Shown here: positions 2,519 to 12,933 of the stretch, piece after piece
Layout of the letters: the number at the start of each line of letters is the position of its first letter
How positions within the stretch are numbered: position 1 is the first letter of the stretch
Assembly: GCA_964583985.1 (NCBI GenBank)
Contig: CAZOYD010000029.1
Coordinates: 1-39,773 of the forward strand
DNA: 39,773 bases
Reading direction: 5' to 3'
From: an uncultured archaeon
GTDB lineage: Archaea > Asgardarchaeota > Lokiarchaeia > Sigyniarchaeales > SOKP01
Program-made: the position numbers and the translations under genes
The notes under the pieces: generated by a model
Told to the model about the DNA's origin: nothing
Seen by the model: only the letters and a program-made list of their open reading frames with translations
Database searches by the model: none

Positions 2519-3295
2519 ATGGCTAAATCATACAAATTGAAGTTGATGTTGCTTGGGAGCTCGGGTTCTGGTAAGACTTCATTCATAAATGGAAATAATG
2601 ATGATGATTGGCCCATTGGCATTTCGTTTACATTAGTGGAATGTTATGCAAATGAGAATGATATCTATAAATTTTTAATATGGGATCTGAAGGATCGCGC
2701 TCATTATCGCTTTATGTTTAAAGATTTTTGTCGAGGTGCATTTGTAGGTTTACTCTGTTTTGACTTGTCAAATAGACAATCATTCCTTGCATTAAATTAT
2801 TGGATAAATTTACTAAGAGAGGGATCCGGTAATATACCAATAATATTGATCGGTACTAAACGAGATTTAGAGAATCGTGAAGTAAAGGATCAAGAAATTT
2901 TAGATTTAATTAAAGATAAGAACTTGGATACTATTTTTTTTACTTCCATATATGAAGAAAATGATGCTAAACAAGAAATTTTTAGATATATTGTACAGAA
3001 ACTCGATCAAGATTATCCACTTTCTAACTTTTCAATATTACCCAGAGAATTGGAAGATGATCAATTCAAACAATTTCTAACGGAATTCTCAATTTGTCCT
3101 ATTTGTAAATCAGAATTACATTATAAAACGCTAAAAGCTATATTTTTTAGTGAAAATGCGGATTCCATAAAAATTAAAAACCAATTATTAAATCTTTTAG
3201 AAGAAATTACCAATTATAACGTTCTTCAATATAAAAACATTAAACTTGGCATTCCTTGTTGTAAATGTTATAAAAAAATATTTGAAACCGAATAA
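2519..3295 (+). CDS. Rab/Ras-like small GTPase (degenerate switch motifs) fused to a C-terminal Cys-rich putative Zn-binding domain
   Basis: G1 GSSGSGKTS, IWDLKDR (G3-like), IILIGTKRD (G4-like), FCRGA..LLCFDLSNRQSF; C-terminal CPIC...CCKC. Confidence 0.8.
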   Translation: MAKSYKLKLMLLGSSGSGKTSFINGNNDDDWPIGISFTLVECYANENDIYKFLIWDLKDRAHYRFMFKDFCRGAFVGLLCFDLSNRQSFLALNYWINLLREGSGNIPIILIGTKRDLENREVKDQEILDLIKDKNLDTIFFTSIYEENDAKQEIFRYIVQKLDQDYPLSNFSILPRELEDDQFKQFLTEFSICPICKSELHYKTLKAIFFSENADSIKIKNQLLNLLEEITNYNVLQYKNIKLGIPCCKCYKKIFETE

Positions 3296-3322
3296 ATTAG
3301 TTGCAATGAAAATCTCCGATTA

Positions 3323-4186
3323 TTACCTCTTTTTTCGAAAAGTAAAGATAAGTACAAGCAAAAATGGAAAAGCTGTAATGAGCATGATTATACCCAGTAG
3401 GATTTGATTGATGAGAAAACCAAGGAAAGCATAATCATAAGCGATGAATAAGAGAATACAAGGAGGAATTAGATCAAGCCAGTAACTTCGCCTTAAACTT
3501 GTCCTTCTTTTTATTATCATCCATAAAGCGAGTGAAACTGTAAGGATCTCCCAAATGATTACAATTACAACTGGTAGATTGTATATAAAAGGTATGAAAG
3601 TTATCAAACCCATTACCATTAAAAAAGTTAAAGCGAGTGGAACGACTGCTAATAAAGTGTAAATTTTACGTTTCTTTGAGCCGTGATTATCAATTTCGCT
3701 AATTGTAAGCAATTCTAATTGGTGTTCTACTTTATTCCAATTCATGCTATAAGATAGCAAATATGCAATGGGAATAAAAAACCAGCCGATAAAGTTAAAA
3801 CTTGGAATACCAAAGAAGGACCCGCCATGCACCCATGTCCATAAACCTAATTCAACTGCTATAGGATCCATGCCCCAATCCAAGCTCAGGGCAATCAAAG
3901 TGGTGATTAGGATGCGCATCCACAATTGAACATCTAATTTTTCGGCGATAATCATCGCACTATAAATGATTCCAACCCATGCTAGTGGAATTGATAGAGG
4001 AACAACGTTTAGAATCATGATTACTTCGGGGGCGTAAAAATGATGTCCTGACATGATCCCTATATATTCCAACAACACTCCATAAATAAATAAGGAAATT
4101 AACATTAACACTCTCTGGATCCAATTTTTCTTTCCGTCTATCAATGCATGAATCATTGCTAAAGTAAATAAAATAACTCCGATCAT
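3323..4186 (-). CDS. Carotenoid biosynthesis (CruF/DUF422-like) integral membrane protein; may start at ATT 4213
   Basis: Multi-TM protein with VPLSIPLAW, DWGMDPIAV..GLWTW and FGIPSFNFIGW motifs. Confidence 0.7.
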   Translation of the reverse strand: MIGVILFTLAMIHALIDGKKNWIQRVLMLISLFIYGVLLEYIGIMSGHHFYAPEVIMILNVVPLSIPLAWVGIIYSAMIIAEKLDVQLWMRILITTLIALSLDWGMDPIAVELGLWTWVHGGSFFGIPSFNFIGWFFIPIAYLLSYSMNWNKVEHQLELLTISEIDNHGSKKRKIYTLLAVVPLALTFLMVMGLITFIPFIYNLPVVIVIIWEILTVSLALWMIIKRRTSLRRSYWLDLIPPCILLFIAYDYAFLGFLINQILLGIIMLITAFPFLLVLIFTFRKKR

Positions 4187-4282
4187 GCTTGGCAGTAGTT
4201 CTAAATATGAAATTTTAAATTCGCCTAAATTTTATTTTTTGAATATGTAATGATGCATCATTTAACTTAAAAACTTTTAATT

Positions 4283-4696
4283 TTATAAAATACCAGAAGC
4301 TTTTATTATATCCAAGTGATCAAAAGCTAATTTCAAATCTAGTATTTTATCGAGTGGTATTATTTCGAGAGTTTTTGCATCATCCTTTGCCAGTGGTTTC
4401 TCATTTTCAGAAACAGGAACGCACTTAAAAGCGATAGAGATATTATGGCCCCTTGGATCTCGTTTAGGATCTGAAAAAACACCAATCAAATTAAGAATTT
4501 TCACATTAATGTTTGTTTCTTCAAAAGCTTCTCTTATACATGCTCGTTCTACTGTTTCACCCACATCTACAAATCCCCCGGGTAACGCAAGTTCTCCTTT
4601 AAAAGGAGGATTTTTTCTGCGAATTAGAACAATTGAATTTCGTGGAAATAATATAAGAGCATCAACTGCTACTAATGGAGTTATTGGCTTTGCTAT
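4283..4696 (-). CDS. NUDIX hydrolase (ADP-ribose pyrophosphatase-like); extends upstream of the ORF-track start (4564) to a probable ATA start at 4696
   Basis: In-frame upstream sequence reads (I)AKPITPLVAVDALILFPRNSIVLIRRKNPPFKGELALPGGFVDVGETVERACIREAFEET, which completes the Nudix box; also RDPRGH and LAFDH. Confidence 0.88.
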   Translation of the reverse strand: MAKPITPLVAVDALILFPRNSIVLIRRKNPPFKGELALPGGFVDVGETVERACIREAFEETNINVKILNLIGVFSDPKRDPRGHNISIAFKCVPVSENEKPLAKDDAKTLEIIPLDKILDLKLAFDHLDIIKASGIL

Positions 4697-4721
4697 AACT
4701 AATCATCTCTTTTTAATTTCA

Positions 4722-9321: not shown

Positions 9322-12189
9322 TCAAGTTATCACTTCTAAATGAGTTGATACTTCACTATTGTTTATCTTAAATGTCCACATATCTCTGTTGTCATCTAGC
9401 TTATTAAAAATTGCGTCCGCTTGAACGGATTTTTGGATGTAATCTTGATACTTCGAAATCGCTTCTAAAATTTCATCGTCTTCAGCAATAAAGTATAGAT
9501 TTATTCTATTATTCGTCGATAGATTTATTTTCTTCCTATAATTATTAATATTTCGTATCAAGTTTCTAGCTATTCCTTCTAATTTCAGTTCTTTCGTGAT
9601 TTCTGTATCCAATTCTATGGATAATTCGGTCACATCTTCATTTTCAACAATGATTTCTTTCACATTTAATGCATTTGTAATTATCTCCAAAAATTCCTCT
9701 TTTAAACTTACTCCTTTCAGTGTTATCTTTTTTAATACTTGTCGCAATGGCATCTTGGCGTTTTCTCTTAATTCCAAAGATTTTTGAACAATTTCCTGTG
9801 TTAAATTCATTTTATCACGTAAGTTTGGATAGAAAAGATTTTGATCGACGCCTGGCCATAGATCCAAATGTACCGATTCGTATTTTGCGAGATTTTTTTC
9901 CCTTAATTTCTGATAAATCATTTCAGAAATGAAGGGGGTAAATGGAGCCAAAATTTTTGATAAATTATGAAGTACGTACGTCAAAGTATTCATAGCGCCT
10001 AATTTTTCTTTTAATTGATCGCTTTTAAATCTATTTCTGCTATTTTTGATGTACCACGTTGATAAATCTTCAACAAAATTAATAATTAATTTGCTTGCCT
10101 CTGCCGTCTCATAATCATCTAATTGGTGAGTCACTTCTAATGCAAGATTATTTACTAAATCTACAATCCATTTATCTAAAACATTTTCCGGTTTGGGTTT
10201 TTCTATAGATACACTGTTGATTTCAAACAAGGAATAGAAATTAAGAACATTTAATAATAACAAATTAAATCTCCGATAAAGTTGTTTAACTATTTCTTCT
10301 TTAAAGTTTAAATCCTTTGCTCGCATTAATTGAGATGCTAATAAATACATCCTTAAGGCATCAGCGCCATAAGATTCTATTATCAAAGATGGATCGGGGT
10401 AATTTTTTTTTGATTTTGACATTTTGGTACCATCTTCGGCAAGGATATTCCCATTTACTACTATATTTTTAAACGGAATTTCATCAAATATAAGAATAGA
10501 GATTACGTGCATGTAGTAAAACCAAGCTCTTACTTGTCCGATATATTCAGAAACAAAATCACTAGGAAAATTGTGTTTAAACCAATCCACATTCTCAAAA
10601 GGATAATGCTTTGCAGCATATGGCATTGAACCTGATTCGAGCCAACAGTCAAACACTTCAGGTATTCGATTCATTACATTTCCACATTCAGAGCACTTTA
10701 AATGTATATCATCTACGATGTGTCTATGCAGGTCTAAATTATCAGGAACTGCTTCGATAGCGAATTCTTGGAGTTCTTTCACAGAACCTATCACTTTAAT
10801 TGCATGACATTGCTCGCATTCCCATATTGGCATGGCAGTAGCCCAAAATCGATTTCTCGAAATACACCAATCAGGAGCATTTTCTAATATGTATTGATAC
10901 CTTTTGGAAATATCTTTAGGATACCAATTGATTTTTTCATTTGTTTTAAGAAGCTTCGATTTTATTTTTTGAATGTTTATGAACCAAGCATCAAGAGCGT
11001 TATATATCAAAGGTGTATCGCATCTATAACAAAATGGATAAGAATGCTTGTAGTCCTCTGTCAAATATGAAAGATTTCTACTATTCAAGTCTTTTAAGAC
11101 TTCTTTATCAACATTCTTAAACCATAATCCCCTCCATTCTTCTGGACCATCAGCTAGTTTTCCGTGTTCATCAATATGTTGAATTATTGGCATATCATAC
11201 TTGTTAATCATTTCATAATCAAATTCTCCATAAATTGCCATATGTACTATTCCCGTGCCTTCATCTGACAAGACTTCTTCACCTCCATCGATGACAAAAT
11301 GACCTAATTTTTCAGTCTCGGCAGAAACTTGGTATAATGGTTCGTATTGTCTATTTATTAATTCGGTTCCTTTAAATTCATCCACAATTTCATAATTCTC
11401 ACTTATTATATCTAATCGAGTTTTACTCAAAATCAAAAATTCTTTTCCTACCTTGATTTTTACATAGTCAAGTTTGCCATTTACTGCCAAAGCGACATTT
11501 CCAATTAACGTCCATGGTGTTGTGCTCCAAGCAAGCAAAAATGTATCTGAAGTACCCTTTAATTTGAATTTCACTATTACTGATTCCTCAATAACGTCTT
11601 TATAGCTATTATCCATGGAAATTTCAGAATTTGAGAGGGGTGTTTCACATCTTGGACAATATAGAAGAATCTTTTTACCTTTATACACGTGACCTTCATC
11701 ATATATCTTCTTAAATATGAACCAAATAGTTTCCATGTACGAATTATCCATTGTTTTATAAGCATTATCAAATTCAATCCATTTCCCCATCCGTTCGACC
11801 GTGTTTTTCCATTCATTCGTATACCAAAGAACTTTCGATCTGCAGAATTCGTTGAATTCACATAAACCCATTTCATATATTTCGTTCTTTTGTTTTAAAT
11901 TTAAAGCTTGTTCGCAAATACTCTCAATAGGAAGTCCATGACAATCCCAACCCCATCTTCTTTCGCAGCGATGATTTTTCATCGTCCAGTACCTTGGAAA
12001 TACGTCTTTTGTGACAAAACTTAAAATATGTCCGTAATGGGGTAAGCCCGTGGCAAATGGAGGTCCATCGTAAAATACATATGGATTAGTGCTTGGTCTA
12101 GATTCAACACTTTTTTCAAAAATTTTATTTTCTTTCCAAAACTGGATTATTTCTTCTTCTTTTTTAACATATGACATGTAATCTACCAT
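9322..12189 (-). CDS. ileS: Isoleucine--tRNA ligase, type 2 (eukaryote/IleRS2-like)
   Basis: DGPPFATGLPHYGH (HIGH), GWDCHGLPIE, WSTTPWT, DWCISRNRFW, KMSKS, YGADALR. Confidence 0.96.
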   Translation of the reverse strand: MVDYMSYVKKEEEIIQFWKENKIFEKSVESRPSTNPYVFYDGPPFATGLPHYGHILSFVTKDVFPRYWTMKNHRCERRWGWDCHGLPIESICEQALNLKQKNEIYEMGLCEFNEFCRSKVLWYTNEWKNTVERMGKWIEFDNAYKTMDNSYMETIWFIFKKIYDEGHVYKGKKILLYCPRCETPLSNSEISMDNSYKDVIEESVIVKFKLKGTSDTFLLAWSTTPWTLIGNVALAVNGKLDYVKIKVGKEFLILSKTRLDIISENYEIVDEFKGTELINRQYEPLYQVSAETEKLGHFVIDGGEEVLSDEGTGIVHMAIYGEFDYEMINKYDMPIIQHIDEHGKLADGPEEWRGLWFKNVDKEVLKDLNSRNLSYLTEDYKHSYPFCYRCDTPLIYNALDAWFINIQKIKSKLLKTNEKINWYPKDISKRYQYILENAPDWCISRNRFWATAMPIWECEQCHAIKVIGSVKELQEFAIEAVPDNLDLHRHIVDDIHLKCSECGNVMNRIPEVFDCWLESGSMPYAAKHYPFENVDWFKHNFPSDFVSEYIGQVRAWFYYMHVISILIFDEIPFKNIVVNGNILAEDGTKMSKSKKNYPDPSLIIESYGADALRMYLLASQLMRAKDLNFKEEIVKQLYRRFNLLLLNVLNFYSLFEINSVSIEKPKPENVLDKWIVDLVNNLALEVTHQLDDYETAEASKLIINFVEDLSTWYIKNSRNRFKSDQLKEKLGAMNTLTYVLHNLSKILAPFTPFISEMIYQKLREKNLAKYESVHLDLWPGVDQNLFYPNLRDKMNLTQEIVQKSLELRENAKMPLRQVLKKITLKGVSLKEEFLEIITNALNVKEIIVENEDVTELSIELDTEITKELKLEGIARNLIRNINNYRKKINLSTNNRINLYFIAEDDEILEAISKYQDYIQKSVQADAIFNKLDDNRDMWTFKINNSEVSTHLEVIT

Positions 12190-12249
12190 ATTTTGATATT
12201 TTATCTTTTTGAAATTTTATTTATTATTTACTATAAGTTCTATTTTTTA

Positions 12250-12297
12250 TTTATGAAACAGGATGTGGATAATTTCTTTCGAAATTCGTTTCATAAA
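12250..12297 (-). promoter_or_regulatory. RNA hairpin in the ileS 5' leader
   Basis: Perfect 10-bp inverted repeat (12250-12259 / 12288-12297) enclosing a 6-bp stem with a GAAA tetraloop (12271-12286) and a bulge AUCCACAUCCU. Confidence 0.65.
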
Positions 12298-12307
12298 GAA
12301 AAGAATT

Positions 12308-12382
12308 TTATCTAATAATAATTTCGGATATGATCTCTATGAAATTTGATTTTATACCTAAAAATTTAGATTTTTCATTCAT
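12308..12382 (-). CDS. Putative Ile-rich leader peptide of ileS, MNEKSKFLGIKSNFIEIISEIIIR* (24 aa)
   Basis: ATG at 12382 preceded by purine-rich GGATGTGGA; 7 Ile codons, 6 of them in the last 10 codons including ATT ATT ATT; stop is 118 nt upstream of the ileS ATG on the same strand. Confidence 0.72.
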   Translation of the reverse strand: MNEKSKFLGIKSNFIEIISEIIIR

Positions 12383-12423
12383 AACATCCACATCCGTAAT
12401 TGTATTTAAAATAAAGTAAAGAG

Positions 12424-12431
12424 TTTATAAA
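12424..12431 (-). promoter_or_regulatory. Putative TATA box for the leader-ileS transcript
   Basis: TTTATAAA about 42 nt upstream of the leader ATG, which places the TSS near 12400. The AT-rich context lowers specificity. Confidence 0.35.
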
Positions 12432-12480
12432 AATATAACGGAACTTTGGGTCGAATCAAAACTCAACTGAGTTTTATAAG

Positions 12481-12933
12481 TCACTTAAATTCTAAATATT
12501 GAAGGCGTGAGTATCCCTTTTTTATGAAATCATAATCAAGGAGCTCTATTTTTTCCGGAACTATTTTTAAAATTAGGTTTCTTTTTCCTCGTACTATTTT
12601 TTGAGCTTTTTCAAAATATTCATCTCCTTCTCTCAAAAATATCAATCTCTCTTTACCAGAAGCAGTAATTTGCATTCCTTGGATTTTCCCGGTATCCATG
12701 GGTGTATAGATTCCAATACTCACATTCGGGTTTTCTTCGATATTTCTAACCTTCCTCCCTGGAGCAGGTCCCACGTAAATATTGAAATTATCTTGAGATT
12801 TATCCATGTAAAAATCCATTGGAGTGGCACGAGGTATGTTGTCCGAACATGTGCATAAAACAATAATTTTCCTTTTCTCTAAAAAATTCCGGATTTCTTT
12901 TTTTAGCTCATCTTCAGGCATCCTAATAGACAT
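12481..12933 (-). CDS. Pyridoxamine 5'-phosphate oxidase-like (FMN/F420-binding split barrel) protein
   Basis: VLCTCSDNIPRATPM, RKVRNIEENPNVSIGI, LKIVPEKIELLDY. Confidence 0.85.
   Translation of the reverse strand: MSIRMPEDELKKEIRNFLEKRKIIVLCTCSDNIPRATPMDFYMDKSQDNFNIYVGPAPGRKVRNIEENPNVSIGIYTPMDTGKIQGMQITASGKERLIFLREGDEYFEKAQKIVRGKRNLILKIVPEKIELLDYDFIKKGYSRLQYLEFK

What the first reader, a model, noticed from the sequence alone, without database searches (positions are those of the whole stretch)
12250..12400. Unannotated Ile-rich leader peptide upstream of ileS: attenuation-like control in an archaeon
Seen: a minus-strand uORF at 12382-12308, MNEKSKFLGIKSNFIEIISEIIIR*, with Ile codons clustered at the 3' end (ATA GAG ATC ATA TCC GAA ATT ATT ATT AGA TAA). 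It is followed immediately by a pyrimidine tract (AAUUCUUUUCUUU) and a hairpin, 118 nt before the ileS start. Established: cognate-codon-rich leader peptides control amino-acid operons and pheST in bacteria; this is poorly documented in archaea. Inference: ribosome stalling at low Ile-tRNA masks the U-tract or remodels the hairpin, allowing ileS expression.
Basis: partly seen in the sequence, partly recalled or inferred. Interest (0 to 1): 0.85.

Follow-up and report, generated by a model that had tools for sequence, protein, structure and literature searches.

The report
Isoleucine-sensing leader before archaeal ileS
A 24-codon reading frame that always ends in three ATT isoleucine codons, set inside an RNA with two competing folds, precedes the only isoleucyl-tRNA synthetase gene found in this Asgard archaeon (a gene imported from bacteria). 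It resembles the ribosome-read amino-acid gauges of bacteria, which I could not find described for archaea, and how it changes gene output is still open.

Summary
In a single genome it is weak evidence: about 1% of long ORFs here have such an upstream frame by chance. Comparison makes it strong. In a sample of 150 genomes of the order, the same 38 hold this 951/955-aa IleRS and a single match to a covariance model of the leader, always just upstream of the gene. The frame stays open in all leaders read, all length changes are in-frame, and ATT x3 is invariant while flanking codons vary freely.

Three helices are conserved:
- A:A' joins the SD-like site to a segment 0-1 codon before the Ile run.
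- A:A'' joins the same site to an anti-SD-like segment downstream.
- B:B' carries A'' in its loop and covaries at up to 8 pairs.

A ribosome stalled at the Ile run would cover A' and favour A:A'' over B:B'.

The gene is of bacterial origin and is the only IleRS detected in this genome. The nearest bacterial relatives show no homologous leader. The output step is unresolved: there is no canonical terminator and no predicted change in ileS SD access.

The same scan already reported this element on orthologous DNA of other genomes. I found no published archaeal case. It is a new variant of a known kind and is untested at the bench.

The parts
12424..12441 (-). P1: conserved A/T-rich TATA-like box with a C-rich 5' edge, about 30 nt upstream of element A. 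It is the putative archaeal promoter of the leader, and the TSS is inferred a few nt 5' of A.
   Evidence: Conserved block at the 5' end of alignments A1 and A3 in all groups, although the upstream genes differ. Its function is inferred, and no TSS data exist.
12387..12396 (-). Element A: SD-like site of the leader frame (core GGATGTGG, 6 nt before the ATG). It is the 5' strand of both alternative helices A:A' and A:A''.
   Evidence: Invariant in 28 aligned leaders. It resembles the complement of the genome's 16S 3' end. SD-type motifs are enriched at -18..-7 of gene starts in this genome.
12308..12382 (-). Leader frame (uORF): ATG, 24 sense codons of which 7 are Ile, then TAA.
   Evidence: The frame is open in all leaders read, while the other two frames hold stops in 27/27. 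Lengths are 20-25 codons and every indel is in-frame.
12325..12332 (-). Element A' (inside the frame, codons 17-20): pairs with A.
   Evidence: 98.7% of cells paired in 28 sequences, and the closing pair occurs as U-A, U-G and C-G. In L114 a change in A is matched in A'.
12314..12322 (-). Sensor codons ATT ATT ATT, one codon after A' and one codon before the stop.
   Evidence: ATT in 27/27 at all three codons, while codon 20 shows 11 different codons and codon 24 shows 10. The run is present in all 38 leaders read.
12287..12302 (-). Element B: 5' strand of helix B:B', which overlaps the pyrimidine tract after the stop.
   Evidence: RNAalifold consensus in the whole set and in each subgroup. 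The inner 11 bp are 95% paired with 5 covarying pairs.
12261..12269 (-). Element A'': anti-SD-like segment that pairs with A. It lies in the loop of B:B', 1-2 nt from B'.
   Evidence: 99.6% paired over 9 bp in 28 sequences. Compensatory changes occur in L008/L096 and in L114.
12245..12260 (-). Element B': 3' strand of helix B:B'.
12190..12244 (-). Poorly conserved A/T-rich spacer, 118-170 nt in relatives. It holds a motif that resembles P1 and may be a second promoter.
   Evidence: Alignment A3. This is inference only.
9322..12177 (-). ileS, bacterial-type class I IleRS (951 aa from the conserved ATG at 12177, or 955 aa from 12189), with an SD-like GGTAG at 12183..12187.
   Evidence: Pfam tRNA-synt_1, Anticodon_1 and DUF5915. 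It sits inside a bacterial clade in the tree. It is the only IleRS detected in the assembly.

Best explanation
This is a cis-acting leader-peptide switch that reads the supply of charged tRNA-Ile for an imported ileS gene.

Proposed sequence of events:
1. A transcript starts at P1. One ribosome loads at the SD-like site A before A' has been made.
2. With ample Ile-tRNA, the ribosome runs through ATT x3 and leaves at the stop. A re-pairs with A', and B pairs with B' (state Y).
3. With scarce Ile-tRNA, the ribosome waits at the ATT run. Its 27-nt footprint covers A', so A is free when A'' emerges. A:A'' forms (state X). Because A'' lies 1-2 nt from B', this keeps B:B' from closing.
4. State X should give more ileS expression than state Y, because the only IleRS of the cell needs negative feedback.

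Basis for each part:
- Shown by comparison: the frame, its codon run, the three helices, their placement, and the one-to-one link with the gene.
- Inferred: translation of the frame, stalling, the TSS, and the direction of the effect.
- Not resolved: the output step. My best guess, about 40% within this model, is premature 3'-end formation or cleavage of P1 transcripts in state Y by an archaeal route (FttA/aCPSF1 or another nuclease acting on the pyrimidine-rich loop displayed by B:B'). Next come RNA stability (about 25%) and translation (about 15%).
For: 1. Link to the gene. In 150 genomes of the order, model R1 matches once in each of 38 genomes, and the same 38 hold the orthologue at 72-100% identity. 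The other 112 have neither. The leader stays with ileS where the upstream gene differs.
2. Coding constraint. The start codon is ATG, or GTG once. 27/28 frames are 75 nt, and the other frames are closed in 27/27. Divergent leaders have 20, 22, 23 and 25 codons, all in-frame. A 1-nt insertion in L039/L079 creates a stop right after the run.
3. Sensor. ATT x3 is invariant amid variable neighbouring codons. The run sits 0-1 codon after A' and 0-1 codon (or 1-2 further Ile codons) before the stop.
4. Switch. State Y is 92.7% paired with 8 pairs changed on both sides (0/500 shuffles; slid controls 35-53%). A:A'' is 99.6% paired. An exhaustive scan finds only these helices conserved. In L114 one change in A is compensated in both A' and A''. 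X and Y are near-isoenergetic, at -2.8 +/- 3.0 kcal/mol. Masking the footprint flips the predicted fold to A:A'' in the four examples printed.
5. Footprint geometry comes from PMC7261190.
6. Need for feedback. No archaeal-type IleRS was found in G000.
7. The idea exists in this gene family. CPR relatives carry their own Ile-rich leaders with hairpin-U6 terminators, and Clostridium relatives carry T-boxes.
Against: - There are no expression, TSS, Ribo-seq or structure-probing data for any of these organisms.
- No conserved hairpin-plus-U-run exists. B:B' is followed by A-rich sequence, the hairpin after the stop shifts register, and the pyrimidine tract is lost in L114.
- In this genome terminators look like T5+ runs just after stops. 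Such runs are not a universal part of the leader.
- Predicted access to the ileS SD is the same with and without the stall mask, 0.465 against 0.467. Loop-to-SD pseudoknots could not be modelled.
- The spacer holds a P1-like motif, so ileS may have its own promoter.
- Several simple readings give 'stall turns the gene down': the post-stop hairpin plus U's as a terminator, A:A'' plus a U-rich tail, or an exposed U-tract for FttA. These fit the physiology badly.
- Third-codon positions are only slightly more variable than first and second positions (0.85 against 0.73/0.75).
- The related genomes are kin, so the shuffle statistics overstate independence.
Confidence: 0.6

Rival explanations
1. The leader is an independent small gene, either a small protein or a dual-function or small RNA with its own promoter and end. 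It is merely linked to ileS, which is transcribed from a proximal promoter in the spacer. The helices gate translation of the small frame, as in type I toxin mRNAs where the SD is sequestered.
For: The SD-like site is sequestered in both folds. A P1-like motif lies in the spacer, and T-runs occur there in two of the three groups. One metagenome contig starts 4 nt after the stop of the frame.
Against: There is one-to-one, same-strand, fixed-order linkage with ileS in 38/38 genomes and none elsewhere. The peptide is not a clean membrane helix, varies at most positions, and keeps nucleotide-level invariance of ATT x3. T-runs are absent from the spacer of the window's own group.
Confidence: 0.12
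2. The leader is a structured RNA switch that senses something other than a ribosome, such as tRNA-Ile, isoleucine or a protein like IleRS itself. The open frame would be incidental.
For: Strong conservation at the nucleotide level, including synonymous sites of the Ile run. There are two alternative partners for one strand. T-boxes control ileS in Clostridium relatives and in Actinobacteria (PMC1262725).
Against: No Rfam family matches, even at E up to 10. Start, frame and stop are kept through five in-frame length changes. The UGGA in A does not fit the usual T-box pairing to an A73-CCA end (this last point is my own knowledge).
Confidence: 0.1
3. The frame is translated, but it gauges general translation or coupling rather than Ile specifically. 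Alternatively it serves as a one-shot ribosome loading device that sets basal expression.
For: Sequestration of the SD once A' is made would limit loading to about one ribosome per transcript (inference). Archaeal factor-dependent termination is proposed to monitor coupling (PMC11616081).
Against: It does not explain the invariant Ile run next to the stop, the 29% Ile content, or the cognate match to the downstream gene. None of 13 other synthetase genes in this genome has a comparable frame.
Confidence: 0.1
4. The frame is a chance open frame in A/T-rich spacer DNA.
For: The base rate of similar frames in this genome is about 1% per gene.
Against: Conservation and covariation across 38 genomes.
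Confidence: 0.01

Closest known systems
Bacterial leader-peptide transcription attenuators (E. coli pheM-pheST, trpL, ilvL, thrL; own knowledge; predicted cases in PMC1262725)
   Same: A short co-oriented frame with a run of cognate codons close to its stop, mutually exclusive helices with one strand under the stalled ribosome, and control of a synthetase gene.
   Different: The host is an archaeon. The switching strand (A) lies upstream of the frame and doubles as its SD. Exclusion of the second helix is steric, with A'' in the loop next to B', rather than by strand sharing. No GC-rich hairpin plus U-run is present.
Ile-rich leaders before ileS of CPR bacteria found here (L052 Saccharibacteria, L060 Absconditabacteria)
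   Same: The same IleRS family and the same idea: Ile runs in a short upstream frame.
   Different: They end in clear hairpin-U6 terminators. They show no sequence or model similarity to the Asgard leader.
T-box leaders of ileS (Clostridium relatives; translational T-boxes in Actinobacteria, PMC1262725)
   Same: They sense tRNA-Ile charging to control ileS through alternative RNA folds.
   Different: A T-box binds tRNA directly and needs no reading frame. There is no T-box match here.
Factor-dependent leader control (tnaC-tnaAB with Rho; own knowledge) and mycobacterial poly-Cys short ORF attenuators (bioRxiv 10.1101/834739, title and abstract only)
   Same: A stall next to the stop codon and no canonical intrinsic terminator. 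The output may go through a termination factor or RNA remodelling.
   Different: The archaeal factor would be FttA/aCPSF1, and no binding site has been defined. Nothing of this was tested here.
ermC/cat translational attenuation (own knowledge)
   Same: A stalled ribosome on a leader frame frees one strand of a helix cascade.
   Different: In ermC/cat the last helix holds the SD of the regulated gene. Here the ileS SD is 100-150 nt away, at variable distance, and outside the conserved helices.

Membership tests
Classical leader-peptide transcription attenuator | Short co-oriented upstream frame with its own start signals | tested here: met
   ATG with an SD-like site 6 nt upstream. The frame is kept in all leaders read, and all indels are in-frame.
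Classical leader-peptide transcription attenuator | Cluster of codons cognate to the regulated gene | tested here: met
   ATT x3 is invariant, with a fourth or fifth Ile codon in many leaders. 7 of 24 residues are Ile, against 10.4% in the proteome.
Classical leader-peptide transcription attenuator | Mutually exclusive helices, one strand lying under a ribosome stalled at the cognate codons | tested here: met
   A:A' competes with A:A'', and A:A'' competes with B:B'. There is covariation, and A' lies 0-1 codon before the run. Footprint geometry comes from PMC7261190.
Classical leader-peptide transcription attenuator | One alternative is an intrinsic terminator (stable hairpin followed directly by a U-run) | tested here: not met
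   B:B' is followed by A-rich sequence. The post-stop hairpin is weak (-1 to -9 kcal/mol), shifts register, and lacks a U-run in the window's group.
Classical leader-peptide transcription attenuator | Read-through responds to charged tRNA supply | not testable with these tools
   This needs reporter, Term-seq or Ribo-seq data.
T-box riboswitch (RF00230) | Match to the T-box covariance model (Stem I specifier and T-box antiterminator) | tested here: not met
   No match at the gathering score or at E up to 10. The same scan detects T-boxes in L058 and L059.
Translational attenuation (ermC type) | SD or start of the regulated gene lies in the helix released by the stall | tested here: not met
   The ileS SD is outside the conserved helices, the spacer length varies from 118 to 170 nt, and the predicted SD access does not change. 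Pseudoknots were not modelled.
Factor-dependent (Rho/FttA-type) leader control | Factor loading or cleavage site exposed in one conformer only | tested here: inconclusive
   The B:B' loop is pyrimidine-rich in two groups and less so in the window's group. No model of an FttA site is available.
Type I toxin-like small ORF | Hydrophobic membrane peptide with an antisense RNA partner, and no fixed partner gene | tested here: not met
   The peptide carries charged and polar residues throughout. It is strictly linked to ileS. G-U pairs place the structure on the ileS strand.

The most novel reading that the evidence does not exclude
A ribosome-read gauge of tRNA-Ile charging arose within Asgard archaea for an ileS gene taken from bacteria. 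It works through an output that is not the bacterial hairpin-plus-U terminator, for example structure-gated FttA/aCPSF1 termination or cleavage. That would make it the first leader-peptide attenuator described in Archaea and direct evidence that regulatory transcription-translation coupling operates in the closest prokaryotic relatives of eukaryotes.
Probability: 0.45. Interest if true: 0.88.

Novelty: new variant of a known kind. Interest (0 to 1): 0.76.

Why it matters
Leader-peptide attenuation is a textbook bacterial mechanism that depends on a ribosome following RNA polymerase closely. In six full-text searches I found no archaeal example.

- A conserved, covarying case in Asgard archaea would show that such coupling is used for regulation there.
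- It would give a defined RNA on which to test how archaeal termination or RNA decay reads RNA structure.
- It would show how an imported bacterial gene acquires host-compatible feedback control. In this genome the gene is the only IleRS detected, so the control would bear on an essential function.

Tried and rejected
- **T-box or any Rfam family:** none matched.
- **Sequestration of the ileS SD:** no change in predicted access. By eye, A'' and the ileS ribosome site share only 5-6 complementary bases, and not consistently.
- **Post-stop hairpin (T5:T3) as a conserved terminator:** its register is not conserved, it is missing from the exhaustive helix scan, and the pyrimidine tract is lost in L114.
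- **Pairing of the Ile codons with a downstream A-rich segment:** seen in single folds but not in any consensus.
- **A second small frame starting in element B:** its length is not conserved, from 2 to 15 codons (read).
- **Frameshifting at the ATT run** (a lead from earlier notes on other synthetase leaders): the +1 and -1 frames stop within a few codons in most groups and never reach ileS (read).
- **Import of the leader with the gene:** R1 finds nothing in 23 bacterial or other relatives. The sister bacterial clade and the nearest representatives, at no more than 54% identity, have no Ile-rich leader.
- **Cognate leaders before other synthetase genes of this genome:** a run-based scan and inspection of 13 genes gave nothing convincing.
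- **The sigma-70 and GC-hairpin terminator scan** is uninformative here.
- **Metagenome contigs** carrying the exact protein give no usable transcript ends.

Full report
**What is there**

On the minus strand, a frame runs from 12382 to 12308. It has ATG, 24 sense codons and TAA. Seven of the residues are Ile, and ATT ATT ATT lies at 12322..12314, one codon before the stop.

Downstream lies a long ORF whose product carries tRNA-synt_1, Anticodon_1 and DUF5915. Its first ATG (12189) is 118 nt from the stop of the small frame. In orthologues that codon is TTG or GTG. The conserved start, with an SD-like GGTAG 5 nt upstream, is 12177.

The upstream gene (12933..12481) is a PNPOx-family protein followed by its own hairpin. 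The window is 30-32% G+C and has no tRNA or Rfam match.

**Is it more than chance?**

In this genome alone, barely.
- Ile is 10.4% of codons and ATT is half of them.
- 6% of long ORFs have an upstream small frame with three Ile in a row.
- 0.9% have the run within one codon of the stop, against 0.5% on the reverse complement.

The weight comes from comparison.

**Whose gene is it?**

The contigs of close relatives are labelled Promethearchaeota, the Loki-type Asgard archaea.

This IleRS is not the usual one of the group. Most genus-mates have a 1050-1095-aa IleRS that is only 35-37% identical to it. In a tree, that long form groups with other archaea. The window's protein and its orthologues form a clade (support 100) inside a bacterial clade (support 100), next to 'Gammaproteobacteria'-labelled MAGs and CPR bacteria.

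The nearest representatives among 1.8 billion clusters are at most 54% identical.

In this genome no archaeal-type IleRS is found by three searches. PF00133 finds only this gene plus genes that, by their sizes and low identity to either IleRS, I take to be the Val, Leu and Met enzymes (identities not confirmed) and weaker partial matches.

Of the 38 carriers in the sample:
- 24 also have the archaeal type.
- 14 do not, and five of these are at least 95% complete.

Here the imported gene is therefore the only detectable IleRS, not a spare.

**The leader belongs to the gene**

All four first orthologues and 12 further GenBank loci show the same small frame and flanking motifs, including one with a different upstream gene.

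I built a covariance model (R1) from 14 distinct leaders. It matches exactly once in each of 38 of 150 genomes of the order, all in two genera of one family. A protein search of the same sample finds the orthologue (72-100% identity) in the same 38 genomes, with the R1 match just upstream each time.

**The frame is under coding constraint**
- The start codon is ATG, or GTG once.
- 27 of 28 aligned frames are 75 nt.
- The two other frames contain stops in 27/27.
- More divergent leaders have 20, 22, 23 or 25 codons, always in-frame.
- One lineage has a 1-nt insertion that creates a stop directly after the Ile run.
- The three Ile codons are ATT in every sequence, while the codon before them takes 11 forms and the codon after takes 10.
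- In one genus a fourth Ile codon follows, and one leader has five.
- Third positions are only slightly more variable than first and second, so peptide-level selection is weak. That is expected for a leader whose product does not matter.

**The RNA**

RNAalifold on all sequences, and on each of three subgroups, gives the same two helices.
- A:A' joins the SD-like site just upstream of the ATG (12396..12387) to codons 17-20 (12332..12325).
- B:B' joins 12302..12287 to 12260..12245 around a 27-nt loop.

On 28 sequences this structure is 92.7% paired, with 8 pairs changed on both sides. No shuffle out of 500 reaches that, and slid controls are 35-53% paired.

The same strand A is also perfectly complementary to A'' (12269..12261), at 99.6% paired. 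A'' lies inside the B:B' loop, only 1-2 nt from B', so a 9-bp A:A'' helix and B:B' cannot coexist. That exclusion is my inference from pseudoknot geometry.

Further results:
- An exhaustive scan for conserved helices finds only these three, plus short G-U-rich matches.
- In the most divergent leader (L114), the first G of A is A, and both A' and A'' carry the matching C-to-U change. This supports both alternative pairings at once.
- G-U pairs place the structure on the ileS strand.
- The two conformers are close in energy, X minus Y = -2.8 +/- 3.0 kcal/mol in 21 leaders.
- A'' resembles the 3' end of this genome's 16S rRNA, and A resembles an SD.
- SD motifs are enriched before genes here.

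**How the sensor would work**

Elongating archaeal ribosomes protect 27 nt, beginning 12 nt before the P site (PMC7261190). With the first ATT in the A site, the ribosome covers all of A' and ends before the stop codon.

Masking that stretch in silico moves the predicted fold from A:A' plus B:B' to A:A'' in the four examples printed.

A closely following ribosome that does not stall would leave before A'' is made, so A:A' re-forms and B:B' closes. The kinetics here are inferred.

**What I could not settle: the output**
- B:B' has no U-run after it.
- The small hairpin overlapping the stop is weak, changes register between lineages, and lacks a U-run in the window's group.
- Terminators in this genome look like T5+ runs within 30 nt of stops, about twice enriched. 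Such runs occur in the spacer of two groups but not in the window's group.
- The ileS SD lies at a variable distance and its predicted access does not change.
- The spacer contains a motif like P1, so a second promoter is possible.
- Simple terminator readings would make a stall lower expression, which makes no sense for a sole IleRS.

I therefore favour an archaeal route in which state Y is the low state. One candidate is factor- or nuclease-dependent 3'-end formation on the loop displayed by B:B'. FttA is proposed to police coupling (PMC11616081). This is a guess.

**Origin of the leader**
- R1 finds nothing in 23 bacterial and other relatives.
- The sister bacterial clade and the nearest representatives have no Ile-rich leader.
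- Two CPR relatives have unrelated, classical Ile leaders with hairpin-U6 terminators.
- Clostridium relatives have T-boxes.
- None of 13 other synthetase genes in this genome has a cognate-rich frame.

The leader thus looks like an invention of this Asgard lineage, or of an unsampled donor.

**Literature and earlier notes**

Six full-text searches gave bacterial cases only. PMC1262725 describes leader peptides and translational ileS T-boxes in Actinobacteria.

The scan's own notes show that orthologous leaders in other genomes were already reported, with the same reading. I reached my results before reading them.

What this report adds:
- In this genome the gene is the only IleRS detected.
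- The L114 double compensation and the in-frame length variants.
- The 38/38 concordance.
- The negative results on the output step.

**Verdict**

This is a real, conserved cis element. It is very probably a translated Ile-sensing leader (0.6 for the whole model). It is a new variant of a known kind, and its mechanism of output is open.

Noticed in passing
own genome G000, contig C64, about 2700-4700 (minus strand); not in the window: The putative leucyl-tRNA synthetase gene has an in-frame TAG after residue 151, inside what looks like a 9-residue insertion. The frame continues to about 948 aa.
   Followed up: no
L003 (G000:C40), about C40:11060-11250, minus strand, upstream of the putative valS: A tRNA-like sequence with matching acceptor ends and CCA, apparently interrupted by introns. 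ARAGORN reports nothing there.
   Followed up: partly
L052:2330-2440 and L060:1567-1680: ileS genes of a Saccharibacteria MAG and an Absconditabacteria MAG are preceded by short frames with two runs of Ile codons, followed by hairpin-U6 terminators. These look like classical attenuators and are unrelated in sequence to the Asgard leader.
   Followed up: partly
L110:901-4401 and L112:1201-4647 (proteins P0001, P0003): The nearest representatives of this IleRS (49% identity) are about 1150-aa bacterial enzymes with a His_Phos_1 domain inserted in the catalytic domain.
   Followed up: no
alignment A3, last columns (for example L090, L095, L100): In the second genus, the ileS ATG is replaced by ATT or ATA 7-8 nt after AAGGTG. 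An in-frame GTG lies 9 nt upstream inside that motif, so the true start is ambiguous.
   Followed up: no
L009 (G032:C1): Another genome of the order carries a different bacterial-type IleRS that groups with Bacteroidota-like sequences. This appears to be a separate import.
   Followed up: no
genus-mates G002, G007, G015, G019, G020 and others: Several near-complete genomes of the genus matched neither IleRS type at the thresholds used (1e-40, 1e-80, 1e-90). Their IleRS may be a third type or may be split.
   Followed up: no
window 12457-12474, minus strand: An 8-bp hairpin with A-run and U-run arms directly follows the PNPOx gene stop and looks like a terminator.
   Followed up: no
L108 (JGI 3300063170 contig): A 3.4-kb contig carrying the identical ileS begins 4 nt after the stop of the leader frame. 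Whether this is an assembly end or an RNA end is unknown.
   Followed up: no
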